Origin: a virus | Length of the DNA: 64,000 bases | Virus record (IMG/VR): IMGVR_UViG_3300050132_000084 | Location: 1 to 64,000 of that record | Reading direction: 5' to 3' (one strand) | In this document: piece after piece, positions 31,903-33,159 of the stretch | Numbering within the stretch: position 1 is the first letter of the stretch | Layout: every line of letters begins with the position of its first letter | Notes under the pieces: generated by a model | What the model was told of the DNA's origin: nothing | The model's input: only the letters and a program-made list of their open reading frames with translations | Database searches by the model: none | Made by a program: the position numbers and the translations under genes

Positions 31903-32123
31903 TAACATTCAAACAATTTGTTGGTGAATCGTATTCTGATGTCACGAACAATGGAAATTATATACCAAACCCAAATGGAAGAAAAGAAATGATTTGTAAT
32001 TTAAGAAAATTCTGTAGGGATAATATAGAATACCGCCTAAATTACAAATCATTATCGAGAGTAGCAAATAATAAACAATCACACCATAGGGGATTCACTT
32101 GCAAATTGGTAAATAATCTTTGA
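31899..32123 (+). CDS. CTS-tagged small basic protein (internal-protein-like)
   Basis: Leader MITFKQFVGE; 74 aa, Lys/Arg/Asn-rich; ATGA-coupled to the upstream ART gene. Confidence 0.55.
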   Translation: MITFKQFVGESYSDVTNNGNYIPNPNGRKEMICNLRKFCRDNIEYRLNYKSLSRVANNKQSHHRGFTCKLVNNL

Positions 32124-33159
32124 ACAATTTATTATAATATGGATTCACTTCATTCACCTTCATGATATCATGCCACTCTTGTGGAATATCATCGATACCA
32201 AATACCAATGCAGCAATAGGTGCTAAAATACTAGAATTTGTGTCAGTATCAAAACCAAAAAGAATACTTTTTGTAATAGCCTCTACAAACGATTCTGATG
32301 TCATTATATGTTTATATGCCAGTACAAGACTATCAATACAATAGCCTGTACCTGTCACATTTACACAATGTGGCAAAAAATCAATTTCATATGCTACAAC
32401 GTCCCACAAATTTTCAAATTCAAACATCATATCATACGTATCATCAATTCGGCTTTTCCACAAACGATGCACTAATTTGCAATAAAAATTACAAGAATTC
32501 AATGCATCATGTGAGTTATGAGTGAAGTGTGAAAAATAATAGGAATCCCTACCAATATTTCCATATGGTTGGAATGCTACTGGCAATGTTGACATTAAAC
32601 TTCCGTTACCTGATCCATTTGGATTCATCAATACCTTACCTGTACGTTCAAGATGGTCAATGGCAGCAAAAGTCTGATTTCCACAATCAAACATTTTTCC
32701 ATTAGTCCAATATTTTCCCATCAACCATTTTGATAATTCTTTAGAATATATCAAAGAATTATCACTATAACATTCAATTTTAAGTAACATTTGACTGAAA
32801 TCATCAGTGATAGTTCCTACAGGAATTTCTTTCCATGTTTTGTAATCATATGGAATCTGGCTTGGGTTCATAATGTAATGTTTTTTAATATCTTTTGCTT
32901 TTTTAAACTCAAAACTTTCTCCAAGGCTATCACCAATAGCAGCAGAATAGAAACAATCCAGCTTCAATTTTTGTTCAATGTTATTATTATCTAACTCCGA
33001 ATTGATTGTATCCTCTATTGCAGTAATCCCACATTTTGGACAAACTAATGTTGAACCACAAAAATTCCCATTTTCATCTTTAAGTTGCTGTTCAACTGCA
33101 TTTTCCCAATCATGCGTACATTCAGATTTTTTGAGTAAATGCAAAAATATGTCAGCCAT
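32095..33159 (-). CDS. ADP-ribosylglycohydrolase (ARH/DraG family) with N-terminal Zn-ribbon
   Basis: AAIGDSLGESFEF near the N-terminus and GFDTDTNSSILAPIAALVFG near the C-terminus are the two ARH metal-binding signatures. C-x-H...CPKC precedes them. Start set at MADIF (ggag RBS); the track TTG start lies within the -10 box. Confidence 0.8.
   Translation of the reverse strand: MADIFLHLLKKSECTHDWENAVEQQLKDENGNFCGSTLVCPKCGITAIEDTINSELDNNNIEQKLKLDCFYSAAIGDSLGESFEFKKAKDIKKHYIMNPSQIPYDYKTWKEIPVGTITDDFSQMLLKIECYSDNSLIYSKELSKWLMGKYWTNGKMFDCGNQTFAAIDHLERTGKVLMNPNGSGNGSLMSTLPVAFQPYGNIGRDSYYFSHFTHNSHDALNSCNFYCKLVHRLWKSRIDDTYDMMFEFENLWDVVAYEIDFLPHCVNVTGTGYCIDSLVLAYKHIMTSESFVEAITKSILFGFDTDTNSSILAPIAALVFGIDDIPQEWHDIMKVNEVNPYYNKLFKDYLPICK

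What the first reader, a model, noticed from the sequence alone, without database searches (positions are those of the whole stretch)
32095..33159. ADP-ribosylglycohydrolase with Zn-ribbon, divergently transcribed next to the ART cluster
Both ARH/DraG metal-site signatures are clear (GDSLGESFEF; GFDTDTNSSILAPIAAL). It is the only minus-strand gene in this ~20-kb stretch, has its own TATAAT promoter and abuts the three ART-like genes. A writer plus eraser of ADP-ribosylation in one phage locus suggests two possibilities. One is temporal control of phage-inflicted modification. The other is erasure of host ADP-ribosylation-based defence (DarT-like DNA or protein modification). The extra N-terminal C-x-H...CPKC module hints at nucleic-acid or protein targeting.
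Basis: partly seen in the sequence, partly recalled or inferred. Interest (0 to 1): 0.66.

Follow-up and report, generated by a model that had tools for sequence, protein, structure and literature searches.

The report
Phage ADP-ribose eraser beside packaged writers
An uncultured T4-like phage carries a well-preserved enzyme that removes ADP-ribose from proteins, transcribed early and backwards next to a row of ADP-ribose-adding enzymes that appear tagged for packaging into the virus head; the pairing recurs in related phages, so it looks like a working writer–eraser set, but the claimed zinc ribbon is unproven.

Summary
The gene is real. The minus-strand CDS 32095-33159 encodes a 354-aa DraG-like ADP-ribosylglycohydrolase (Pfam PF03747, E=7e-30). 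All binuclear-metal residues are kept, and the catalytic domain is modelled at pLDDT 95-98.

It is the only minus-strand gene for about 29 kb. Its promoter matches the phage's own early-type class (TTGnnn-17-TGGTATAAT).

Three ART-like genes converge on it: two hit Pfam, one rests on a weak fold match. All three start with MKTF(K/N)Q..E, like the T4 capsid-targeting sequence MKTYQEFIAE, so they are probably packaged and injected.

This ART array / reverse ARH / UvsW layout recurs in at least six other large T4-like metagenomic contigs. Every one of the 10 closest ARH homologues whose neighbourhood could be read has an Alt-like ART within 3 kb. The closest solved structures are ARH immunity proteins of ART toxins (Listeria Lmo0067, Serratia Tri1) and DraG.

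The "Zn-ribbon" is only a CPKCG knuckle plus C-x-H in an orphan 57-aa extension (no homologue, no Pfam hit, pLDDT 56-68).

Best reading: an arginine-type eraser partnered with the phage's own ARTs. Anti-DarT DNA repair is unlikely. This is a new variant of the phage ART–ARH pairs already predicted bioinformatically. Interest is moderate.

The parts
32095..33159 (-). ARH gene (354 aa from the ATG at 33159; stop TGA at 32095-32097). JGI called the same ORF from the ATG at 33171 (358 aa, P0001).
32098..32988 (-). DraG-like ADP-ribosylglycohydrolase catalytic domain (residues 58-354), an all-alpha fold
   Evidence: Pfam 69-328; AF2 pLDDT 82-98 per 10-residue block over residues 61-350, most blocks 94-98; Foldseek hits to 8za7, 6drh, 2woc at E about 1e-10 to 1e-11
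32905..32934 (-). GDSLGESFEF motif; E84 corresponds to DraG E28 (metal/catalytic)
32800..32808 (-). T118-D119-D120, corresponding to DraG T59-D60-D61; D119 and D120 are invariant in 80 sequences
32686..32688 (-). D158 in FDCGN, corresponding to DraG D97 (proton relay)
   Evidence: PMC8120803
32239..32256 (-). GFDTDT; D304, D306 and T307 correspond to DraG D243, D245 and T246 (second metal site)
32989..33159 (-). Orphan 57-aa N-terminal extension (4 Cys, 2 His). It is probably translated. Its fold and function are unknown.
   Evidence: no homologue; pLDDT 56-68; codon score +6.2 in frame against -30 and -43
33028..33042 (-). C40-P-K-C43-G zinc-knuckle-like motif
   Evidence: sequence; motif only
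33112..33120 (-). C14-T-H16, the possible second ligand pair
   Evidence: sequence; motif only
33166..33169 (-). Shine-Dalgarno GGAG, 6 nt before the ATG. The leader CA(T/G)GGAGAA(A/T) is conserved in L001, L003, L008 and, from the printed upstream stretch, L085.
33192..33220 (-). Early-type sigma-70 promoter of the ARH: TTGTGG, 17 nt, extended -10 TGGTATAAT. Its -35 box lies inside the first codons of uvsW.
   Evidence: 9 exact TGGTATAAT sites, eight of them just ahead of an ORF or the tRNA cluster; relatives keep TGnTAT..T at the same place
33172..33179 (+). GATAAATA, a T4-type late-promoter core 31 nt before the uvsW ATG. It is interleaved with the ARH leader.
   Evidence: NATAAATA occurs 15 times on plus and 0 times on minus
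33211..34767 (+). UvsW helicase, divergent neighbour. The likely start is M25 of the long ORF.
31018..31902 (+). ART3: Alt-like ADPrib_exo_Tox ART starting MKTFNQLRE (CTS-like). YSG replaces YRG; STS and ENE are kept.
30365..31018 (+). ART2: 217-aa CTS-like protein (MKTFKQFVFE) with YYHGT and PDED motifs, probably a divergent ART fold
28259..29065 (+). ART1: ADPrib_exo_Tox ART starting MKTFKQFRE (CTS-like). It has YSG, SSS and DDE motifs.
28166..28173 (+). AATAAATA late-promoter-like core, 85 nt before the ART1 ATG (site start 93 nt upstream)
31899..32123 (+). 74-aa ORF starting MITFKQFVGE (CTS-like). It overlaps the ARH 3' end by 29 nt, convergently.
21520..22173 (+). T4 gp21-type prohead protease, the enzyme that would cleave the CTS
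   Evidence: phrog_207, 2.3e-66

Best explanation
The gene encodes an active, metal-dependent mono-ADP-ribosylhydrolase of the bacterial DraG/Tri1/Lmo0067 type, whose characterised members remove ADP-ribose from arginine. It is the dedicated eraser for the phage's own Alt-like ADP-ribosyltransferases.

Those ARTs carry a T4-type capsid-targeting N-terminus. They are therefore made for packaging into proheads, cleaved there by the gp21-type protease, and injected with the DNA into the next host.

The ARH has no such tag and stays in the cell. It is transcribed by host RNA polymerase from an early-type extended -10 promoter on the opposite strand. It would therefore already be present when new ARTs are made.

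There it strips ADP-ribose from proteins that must stay functional while the phage develops. This is self-immunity of the toxin/immunity kind, and it may also reset marks left by the injected enzymes.

Shown: enzyme family, intact active site, strand, promoter class, CTS-like tags, conserved linkage.

Inferred: arginine specificity, packaging of the ARTs, expression timing, the immunity role.

The 57-aa Cys/His extension is unexplained. It may bind zinc, or, like the Tri1 extension, contact a partner ART.
For: Enzyme:
- Pfam E=7e-30 over the full profile.
- All DraG metal residues are aligned and conserved.
- The domain model is confident.

Type:
- Sequence and fold neighbours are Lmo0067 ('ART-ARH toxin effector-immunity pair'), Tri1 (immunity to Tre1) and DraG. 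ARH3 lies three to four orders of magnitude weaker.
- The only NCBIfam matches are DraG and Tri1.
- The partner ARTs keep STS and ExE, the arginine-type signature.

Linkage:
- The same layout (UvsY, ARTs forward, ARH reverse, UvsW forward) occurs in L003, L004, L008, L084, L085 and the P0003 contigs. This holds despite 49% UvsW identity, 35-49% ARH identity and 36% versus 51-52% GC.
- L005 and L083 keep ARH and ART together in other arrangements.
- Six further viral contigs have co-directional ART-then-ARH pairs.

Packaging:
- Every ART in these arrays starts M-[KLQ]-[TSN]-F-x-[QEK]-x..E, against the T4 CTS MKTYQEFIAE (PMC8442874).
- In L084 a GNAT acetyltransferase in the array carries the same tag.
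- The window encodes gp20, prohead core, gp21 protease, gp22 and gp23.

Timing:
- The ARH promoter is of the TGGTATAAT class shared with uvsY and gp55-like genes.
- ART1 and uvsW have NATAAATA late-type cores.
- Relatives conserve the ARH extended -10 and leader.

Precedent: Tri1 both hydrolyses ADP-ribose and blocks Tre1 with an N-terminal extension (PMC8120803).
Against: - No experiment exists on any phage DraG-like ARH.
- Most of the conserved synteny sits inside a vertically inherited core region (gp23 to uvsY to uvsW), so it is weaker than independent co-occurrence.
- T4 runs Alt, ModA and ModB with no ARH, so an eraser is not needed in principle.
- The ART2 family (187 homologues) also occurs without any ARH nearby (L086).
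- Early expression fits an anti-defence gene equally well.
- All nine aligned ARTs lack the canonical Arg of R-S-E (YSG in place of YRG), so their activity and target residue are uncertain.
- The window ARH has Ser where 90% or more of the family has Arg, in GNGSLM[R].
- ART2 and ART3 lie downstream of the early-type uvsY promoter and may also be made early.
Confidence: 0.5

Rival explanations
1. Counter-defence eraser. The ARH removes ADP-ribose that a host defence ART places on phage or host proteins (or, less likely, on DNA or RNA). It sits next to the ARTs only because both lie in an accessory, anti-defence island.
For: - The early-type promoter is typical of anti-defence genes.
- T4-like phages are known to carry orphan erasers against DarT: AdfN, a NADAR protein (PMC11825919), and AdfM, a macrodomain protein (bioRxiv 10.1101/2025.11.20.689424).
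- The locus is a variable array of injected effectors like the T-even internal-protein loci, which are anti-restriction factors (PMC3012670).
- Homing endonucleases and cassette duplication nearby show plasticity.
Against: - All 10 closest ARH homologues with readable context keep an Alt-like ART within 3 kb, including two rearranged contexts.
- The proven anti-DarT erasers belong to other folds.
- Characterised DraG-like enzymes act on protein Arg/Ser, not DNA (PMC8120803).
- Neither the ARH nor any of the three ART-like proteins matches a PADLOC model, which bears only weakly on a counter-defence role.
Confidence: 0.2
2. Temporal switch. The injected ARTs modify host targets such as RNA polymerase or translation factors in the first minutes. 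The early-made ARH then deliberately removes those marks to move the programme forward. Convergent late transcription through the ART cluster, and the interleaved uvsW late promoter, then silence the ARH.
For: - The ARH has an early promoter. Late-type cores lie upstream of ART1 and uvsW.
- No terminator-like site lies between the convergent ART cluster and the ARH.
- The ARH -10 and the uvsW late core lie within 30 bp of each other on opposite strands.
Against: - No phage is known to reverse its own ADP-ribosylation.
- Timing is inferred only from promoter motifs.
- ART2 and ART3 may themselves be early transcripts from the uvsY promoter.
- This reading overlaps the best explanation and cannot be separated from it by sequence alone.
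Confidence: 0.2
3. Small-molecule or non-catalytic role. The protein hydrolyses a soluble ADP-ribose derivative (O-acetyl-ADP-ribose, or a signalling nucleotide), or it has lost activity and acts only as a binder.
For: - Some ARH-family members act on OAADPr (PMC9503650).
- The nearly invariant Arg of GNGSLMR is Ser here.
- The orphan N-terminal module could mediate binding.
Against: - All metal ligands and the TH motif are intact.
- The closest homologues keep the Arg, so the clade as a whole looks active.
- Comparative analysis argues that phage ARGs prefer macromolecular conjugates (PMC9503650).
- The tight ART linkage is unexplained by this reading.
Confidence: 0.08

Closest known systems
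Tri1 (Serratia proteamaculans), ARH immunity protein of the T6SS ART toxin Tre1 (PDB 6DRE/6DRH)
   Same: - DraG-like fold with E-D-D metal-site residues.
- Top-3 Foldseek match (E about 6e-11) and a phmmer hit (9e-11).
- Genetically paired with an exoenzyme-type ART: Tre1 is a typical R-S-E ART, whereas the window's ARTs keep only the STS and ExE elements.
- Carries an N-terminal extension of about 70 aa ahead of the ARH domain (PMC8120803).
   Different: - Only 20-21% identity. The NCBIfam Tri1 equivalog scores 62.8 bits against a cut-off of 490.
- The extensions share no sequence similarity.
- Tri1 is bacterial and co-directional with its toxin. Here the gene is phage-borne and convergent with several ARTs that carry capsid-targeting tags.
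Lmo0067 (Listeria monocytogenes), 'ART-ARH type toxin effector-immunity pair' (PDB 8ZA7)
   Same: Best hit by both sequence (3.4e-15) and structure (3.9e-11, TM 0.67/0.71). It is an ARH partnered with an ART.
   Different: - 22% identity.
- No N-terminal Cys/His extension aligned.
- Bacterial chromosomal locus.
- No paper on it is in the searchable library.
DraG/DraT of nitrogen-fixing bacteria
   Same: All catalytic and metal residues are conserved (E28, T59-D61, D97, D243, D245, T246). Arg-ADP-ribose eraser partnered with an exoenzyme-type ART (DraT has the conserved R-S-E motif; here only STS and ExE are kept) (PMC8120803).
   Different: The TIGR02662 equivalog scores 69.8 bits against a cut-off of 337. 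There is no nitrogenase context, and regulation differs.
ART-ARG pair of Aeromonas T4-like phages (Aeh1 ORF131c/132c), noted by Nolan 2006 (PMC1524935) and Iyer 2022 (PMC9503650)
   Same: A T4-like phage encodes an ARH next to an ART. It was predicted to be a macromolecule-modifying toxin/antitoxin-like pair. The Aeh1 ARH is the second-best viral fold match.
   Different: - 26-28% identity.
- The Aeh1 partner is a 1211-aa protein with a weak PARP-like (H-Y-E type) domain, co-directional and without a CTS-like start.
- Here the partners are small Alt-like ARTs with CTS tags, in an array, convergent with the ARH.
T4 Alt/ModA/ModB and the T-even internal-protein (IP) loci
   Same: - Alt-like ART family (phrog_802).
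- N-termini resemble the IP capsid-targeting sequence MKTYQEFIAE (PMC8442874).
- A variable array of injected effectors (PMC3012670).
   Different: - T4 has no ARH.
- T4 IPs are not ARTs, and to my knowledge Alt does not use the IP-type CTS.
- Here the canonical Arg of R-S-E is Ser/Thr.
AdfN (NADAR) and AdfM (macrodomain), T4 anti-DarT erasers
   Same: Orphan ADP-ribose erasers carried by T4-like phages (PMC11825919; bioRxiv 10.1101/2025.11.20.689424).
   Different: Unrelated folds. They act on DNA-linked ADP-ribose and are not linked to phage ARTs.

Membership tests
ADP-ribosylglycohydrolase superfamily (Pfam PF03747; DraG-like ARH) | Profile match above the curated threshold over the whole domain | tested here: met
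   105.1 bits against 26.2, profile 2-287/287; PHROG 6572 at 2e-34
ADP-ribosylglycohydrolase superfamily (Pfam PF03747; DraG-like ARH) | Binuclear metal-site ligands and catalytic Asp (DraG E28, T59/D60/D61, D97, D243/D245/T246), plus the TH motif | tested here: met
   E84, T118/D119/D120, D158, D304/D306/T307 and T213-H214 are aligned and invariant or nearly so
ADP-ribosylglycohydrolase superfamily (Pfam PF03747; DraG-like ARH) | All-alpha ARH fold | tested here: met
   AF2 pLDDT 82-98 per 10-residue block over residues 61-350, most blocks 94-98; Foldseek TM up to 0.79 to DraG, probability 1.0
ADP-ribosylglycohydrolase superfamily (Pfam PF03747; DraG-like ARH) | Hydrolysis of an ADP-ribosyl linkage | not testable with these tools
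   Needs an enzyme assay
DraG proper (NCBIfam TIGR02662 equivalog) | Score above the equivalog cut-off | tested here: not met
   69.8 bits against 337
Tri1-type bifunctional immunity protein (NCBIfam NF041672) | Score above the equivalog cut-off | tested here: not met
   62.8 bits against 490
Tri1-type bifunctional immunity protein (NCBIfam NF041672) | N-terminal extension that occludes the partner ART active site | tested here: inconclusive
   An extension of similar length exists (57 aa), but it has no similarity to Tri1, has low model confidence, and no complex prediction was available
ART-ARH toxin/immunity (writer-eraser) gene pair | ARH gene adjacent to an ART gene, with the linkage conserved among relatives | tested here: met
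   Window; L001, L003, L004, L005, L008, L083, L084, L085 and the P0003 contigs; six more co-directional pairs
ART-ARH toxin/immunity (writer-eraser) gene pair | ART toxicity or modification reversed by the ARH | not testable with these tools
   Needs co-expression and biochemistry
Zinc ribbon | Two zinc knuckles (usually CxxC ... CxxC) on beta-hairpins, recognisable by a profile or a confident model | tested here: inconclusive
   One CPKCG knuckle plus C-x-H; best Pfam E is 0.05, to a DUF; pLDDT 56-68 with only isolated beta bridges; no homologues
T4-type capsid-targeted internal proteins (applies to the neighbouring ARTs) | N-terminal peptide of about 10 aa resembling MKTYQEFIAE and ending in Glu, plus a gp21-type prohead protease in the genome | tested here: met
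   MKTFKQFRE, MKTFKQFVFE, MKTFNQLRE and MITFKQFVGE; gp21 homologue at 2.3e-66; CTS sequence from PMC8442874
T4-type capsid-targeted internal proteins (applies to the neighbouring ARTs) | Presence in virions and cleavage of the tag | not testable with these tools
   Needs virion proteomics
R-S-E (cholera/C2-C3-like) ARTs (applies to ART1 and ART3) | Catalytic Arg, STS and ExE motifs | tested here: not met
   STS and ExE are present, but the Arg position is Ser/Thr (YSG) in all nine aligned members. The Pfam ADPrib_exo_Tox match itself is above threshold.

The most novel reading that the evidence does not exclude
The phage applies toxin-immunity logic to make its own injected weapons safely. The ARH would be a Tri1-like bifunctional guardian. 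Its orphan Cys/His N-terminal module would bind and plug the newly made capsid-destined ARTs until they are locked into proheads, while the hydrolase domain erases any leak-through arginine ADP-ribosylation. In the GC-rich sister phages the binding role would fall to the small H-x-x-H/C-x-x-C protein that is translationally coupled to the ARH. That would be the first viral effector/immunity pair built around packaged enzymes.
Probability: 0.12. Interest if true: 0.7.

Novelty: new variant of a known kind. Interest (0 to 1): 0.45.

Why it matters
Phage ADP-ribosyltransferases such as T4 Alt, ModA and ModB are a classic case of host takeover, and Alt has recently been tied to defence evasion. 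No phage has yet been shown to reverse its own ADP-ribosylation. DraG-like erasers are rare in viruses and none from a phage has been characterised.

This locus is a conserved, compact case with several capsid-tagged writers and one early, oppositely transcribed eraser. It would make two questions directly testable. Do phages need immunity against their own injected enzymes? Or do they use reversible ADP-ribosylation as a timer?

It also defines a clade of uncultured T4-like phages whose internal-protein locus is filled with enzymes (ARTs and a GNAT) rather than small inhibitors.

If the ARH turns out to be only one more annotated hydrolase, little changes. The domain call itself is ordinary.

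Tried and rejected
- Megablast of 30000-35000 against 50,697 phage records found no match. The phage has no close cultured relative. Its UvsW is 37-40% identical to cyanomyovirus UvsW.
- A single-protein scan of IMG/VR found nothing. The alignment-based scan worked.
- The look-up of encoding contigs for the window's own protein returned 'not on record'.
- Homologues of the N-terminal extension were sought in four ways: exhaustive phmmer with the full protein (no listed hit starts before residue 41), a word-index search of the 66-aa peptide (none), and Pfam at E up to 10 (only DUFs at 0.05-0.11).
- I tested whether the extension is a fused copy of the small CxxC ORF that follows the ARH in L003, L004, L008 and L084. 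BLASTP gave E=0.025 over 17 residues. A profile of the four ORFs did not pick out the ARH ORF among 973 window ORFs. Rejected.
- I tested whether the extension equals the 71-aa ORF upstream of the P0003 ARH. It shows no resemblance and looks like a coiled coil. Rejected.
- I considered an alternative downstream start that would remove the extension. The only candidate is a TTG at codon 64, which has no SD. The ATG at 33159 has GGAG and a conserved leader. Rejected as less likely.
- PADLOC gave no hit for the ARH or the ARTs.
- Rfam gave no hit in 28-43 kb.
- No terminator-like site lies in 31700-33600.
- The bare TATAAT as evidence of a promoter was rejected, since the window holds 97 copies. 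It was replaced by the 9-mer class analysis.
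Full report
WHAT IS THERE

The minus strand carries one long ORF, 32095-33192. The ATG at 33159 is preceded by GGAG with a 6-nt spacer and gives a 354-aa protein. JGI's gene call for the identical sequence starts four codons earlier (P0001, 358 aa, on a 150,145-bp metagenomic contig).

Residues 69-328 match Pfam ADP_ribosyl_GH end to end (profile 2-287/287, 105 bits against a cut-off of 26.2, E=7.2e-30). They also match PHROG 6572 'ADP-ribosylglycohydrolase' (2e-34).

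Aligned to R. rubrum DraG (2WOC), every metal or catalytic position is kept (roles from PMC8120803 and, for the second site, my own recollection of Berthold 2009):
- E84 corresponds to E28.
- T118/D119/D120 correspond to T59/D60/D61.
- D158 corresponds to D97.
- D304/D306/T307 correspond to D243/D245/T246.

These columns, plus the T213-H214 motif, are invariant or at least 90% conserved in alignments of 12 and 80 family members.

One deviation stands out. The nearly invariant Arg of GNGSLM-R is Ser here, although the closest homologues keep Arg.

An AlphaFold2 model built on the 80-sequence alignment gives pLDDT 82-98 per 10-residue block (most blocks 94-98) for residues 61-350.

THE 'ZN-RIBBON'

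Residues 1-57 are an extension found only in this protein.
- In an exhaustive HMMER scan of 1.84 billion representatives, 2,540 proteins match. Only seven reach E below 1e-30. No listed hit other than the protein itself begins before query residue 41.
- The peptide alone finds nothing.
- It reaches no Pfam family (best E=0.05, to a DUF).
- The model there has pLDDT 56-68, with two short helices and isolated beta bridges.

The segment contains C14-x-H16, C34 and a classical C40-P-K-C43-G knuckle. Zinc binding is therefore possible, but a zinc ribbon is not demonstrated.

The segment is probably translated:
- It is open for 65 codons upstream of the domain.
- It has the only ATG with an SD.
- Its in-frame codon score is +6, against -30 and -43 out of frame. 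Typical genes score +21 ± 11 and off-frames -49 ± 21.

SETTING

The window is a piece of a T4-like phage. It encodes:
- large terminase, sheath, tube, portal, prohead core, gp21-type protease, scaffold and gp23;
- two tandem homing endonucleases;
- UvsY and UvsW.

There is no nucleotide match to any of 50,697 phage records. UvsW is only 37-40% identical to cyanomyovirus UvsW.

The ARH is the only credible minus-strand gene between about 12 and 41 kb, and GC skew flips in its bin.

SIGNALS

A bare TATAAT means nothing here, with 97 copies in the window. The ARH hexamer, however, is part of TGGTATAAT with TTGTGG exactly 17 nt upstream.
- This exact 9-mer occurs nine times in the window.
- Eight of the nine sit just ahead of an ORF or the tRNA cluster (uvsY, the gp55-like gene, a homing endonuclease and others), with TTG-type or GTGACA -35 boxes; the ninth (35022, minus strand) has no identifiable target.
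- That is the phage's sigma-70-type, presumably early, promoter class.

Relatives keep an extended -10 (TGATATACT, TGTTATGCT, TGGTATACT, TGTTATGTT). Where the leader could be read (L001, L003, L008, L085) they also keep the CA(T/G)GGAGAA(A/T) motif at the same place, despite 36% versus 51-52% GC.

The T4-type late core NATAAATA occurs 15 times on the plus strand and never on the minus strand, where about 12 are expected.
- One copy starts 93 nt before the ART1 start codon.
- One copy lies 31 nt before the uvsW start.
- The uvsW copy is interleaved with the ARH leader, inside a gap of only 51 bp between the two start codons.

No terminator-like site separates the ARH from the convergent ART genes.

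THE NEIGHBOURS

ART1 (28259-29065) and ART3 (31018-31902) match ADPrib_exo_Tox. ART3 also matches Alt-like PHROG 802.

ART2 (30365-31018) has no Pfam hit.
- It belongs to a well-conserved family of 187 proteins.
- Its confident model (pLDDT 92.7) has only ARTs as its top seven PDB matches: TreX, PltA, pertussis S1, cholera A1 and Arr.
- The scores are weak, E=0.017-0.6.

In a nine-member alignment the Alt-like ARTs keep STS and ExE, but have Ser/Thr where the R of R-S-E should be: YSG against YRG of C3larvin.

All three ARTs, and a 74-aa ORF that overlaps the ARH 3' end, begin MKTF(K/N)Q(F/L)..E or MITFKQFVGE. This is strikingly like the T4 internal-protein capsid-targeting sequence MKTYQEFIAE, which is cleaved after the Glu by the prohead protease (PMC8442874; PMC3012670). 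I therefore read the array as a locus of packaged, injected enzymes. The ARH has no such tag.

CONSERVATION

An alignment-based scan of IMG/VR found 211 viral relatives. The closest are L003, L004 and L008, all from contigs of about 168 kb with 51-52% GC. They carry UvsW, then the ARH on the opposite strand, then two to five CTS-tagged ARTs converging on it.

Two further contigs of 171 and 173 kb, reached through ART2 homologues, show the same layout. In one of them a CTS-tagged GNAT acetyltransferase sits in the array.

The closest full-length ARH homologue (P0003, 49% identity) has an ART, an 88-aa ORF, UvsY, a tube-like gene and gp23 convergent with it.

P0002 (51%) has a convergent ART fragment 1.1 kb away.

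Two relatives keep the pair in other arrangements:
- L083: ARH, 60-aa ORF, tube-like gene, UvsY and ART, all co-directional.
- L005: next to baseplate genes.

An HMM of the Alt-like ARTs also finds six unrelated viral contigs with a co-directional ART-then-ARH pair.

Window and L003 UvsW are 49% identical, and the ARHs 37%. The module is therefore old within this clade.

A caveat applies. Most of this is synteny inside a conserved core block. In addition, the ART2 family exists without an ARH elsewhere (L086).

WHAT IT MOST LIKELY DOES

By sequence and by fold, the nearest characterised proteins are ARHs that partner ARTs:
- Listeria Lmo0067, deposited as an 'ART-ARH toxin effector-immunity pair';
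- Serratia Tri1, immunity to Tre1;
- DraG.

The Ser-specific ARH3 group is three to four orders of magnitude weaker. NCBIfam sees only DraG and Tri1, both far below equivalog cut-offs. The protein is therefore neither of these but a separate lineage of the same kind.

The ARTs carry an ExE signature and the layout is conserved. The best-supported reading is thus an arginine-type eraser dedicated to the phage's own ARTs. It would be made early from a host-type promoter and so be in place before the capsid-destined ARTs are synthesised. It would act as self-immunity and possibly as a reset of marks left by the injected enzymes.

I give about 0.5 to 'partner of its own ARTs'. Within that I lean to immunity over a deliberate timer. 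I give about 0.2 to a stand-alone counter-defence eraser, and less than 0.1 to a small-molecule or non-catalytic role.

An anti-DarT DNA function is unlikely. The proven T4 erasers are NADAR and macrodomain proteins (PMC11825919; bioRxiv 10.1101/2025.11.20.689424).

The N-terminal extension is unexplained. Tri1 sets a precedent: its N-terminal extension plugs the ART active site (PMC8120803). Neither could be tested here.

NOVELTY

The following were already known:
- ARH domains in phages are annotated (PHROG 6572).
- They are rare: about 5% of jumbo phages (PMC9503650), and 14 BFVD fold matches.
- An ART-ARG pair in Aeromonas T4-like phages had been pointed out (PMC1524935; PMC9503650). There the partner is a 1211-aa PARP-like protein, co-directional and untagged.

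The following are new here:
- the partnership with an array of small Alt-like, capsid-tagged ARTs;
- the fixed antisense orientation with an early-type promoter;
- conservation across a clade of uncultured T4-like phages;
- an orphan Cys/His extension on this particular copy.

No experimental study of a phage DraG-like ARH turned up.

I rate this a new variant of a known kind, with moderate interest (0.45).

Noticed in passing
window 35014-35042 (minus strand): A perfect 12/12 sigma-70 promoter with an extended -10 (TTGACA, 17 nt, TGGTATAAT) lies in the 373-bp gap between uvsW and the gp55-like gene. It points toward uvsW and the ARH. No ORF longer than 23 aa lies downstream of the promoter on that strand, and there is no Rfam hit. 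It may drive an antisense RNA against the late gene uvsW, or an unknown small RNA.
   Followed up: partly
whole window: The T4-type late-promoter core NATAAATA occurs 15 times on the plus strand and 0 times on the minus strand (Markov expectation about 12 on minus). Many plus-strand copies lie 29-48 nt before gene starts. This suggests selection against antisense late transcription.
   Followed up: partly
window 28214-28258 versus 30330-30368: The 3' end of the 85-aa ORF (..GVDSWKEEQ*) and the following CTS start are repeated just upstream of ART1 (..GVDPWKEEN*). So an [85-aa ORF + CTS-ART] cassette was duplicated. The upstream copy is truncated next to the homing endonuclease gene 26685-28166.
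   Followed up: partly
window 25040-26611 and 26685-28166: Two tandem paralogous homing-endonuclease genes (phrog_3339, 2e-91 and 3e-105) are inserted between gp23 and the ART/UvsY block. Each has its own TGnTATAAT promoter.
   Followed up: no
window 31899-32123 (+): A 74-aa ORF with a CTS-like start (MITFKQFVGE) and a weak HNH-PHROG hit (1.6e-4). It overlaps the ARH stop region by 29 nt in convergent orientation. It could be a small packaged protein or a gene remnant.
   Followed up: no
L003 8902-9114; L004 8893-9108; L008 9001-9225; L084 10164-10406 (minus): A conserved 69-80-aa protein (MF.HP.H...C.K.CG.T.R.D...RQL.ID.F..QH.H...TYHERN) overlaps the ARH stop codon in the GC-rich sister phages. 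It is translationally coupled, has His/Cys pairs suggestive of zinc binding, and matches no Pfam family. It is not detectably related to the window's N-terminal extension.
   Followed up: partly
window ART1/ART3; L003, L005 and L008 ARTs (alignment A3): All nine Alt-like ARTs of this clade have Ser/Thr (YSG) in place of the catalytic Arg of the R-S-E triad, while keeping STS and ExE. This is a family-wide departure whose effect on NAD+ binding or activity is unknown.
   Followed up: partly
L084 8663-9067: A GNAT acetyltransferase with the same capsid-targeting-like start (MKSFKQFVTE) sits inside the ART array of a related 171-kb phage contig. The locus therefore seems to collect different injected enzymes.
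   Followed up: no
window 30365-31018 and P0152-P0271: The ART2 family (YYHGT ... PDED ... GSNFFDHA) has 187 homologues at 31-79% identity among the 120 listed. It has no Pfam model. Its confident AF2 model is only weakly ART-like. It also occurs in a different, 107-kb phage type without an ARH (L086).
   Followed up: partly
window 48450-49748: Three tRNA genes (Pro-TGG, Thr-TGT, His-GTG). The first lies immediately downstream of a TTGACA-17-TGGTATAAT promoter at 48423.
   Followed up: no
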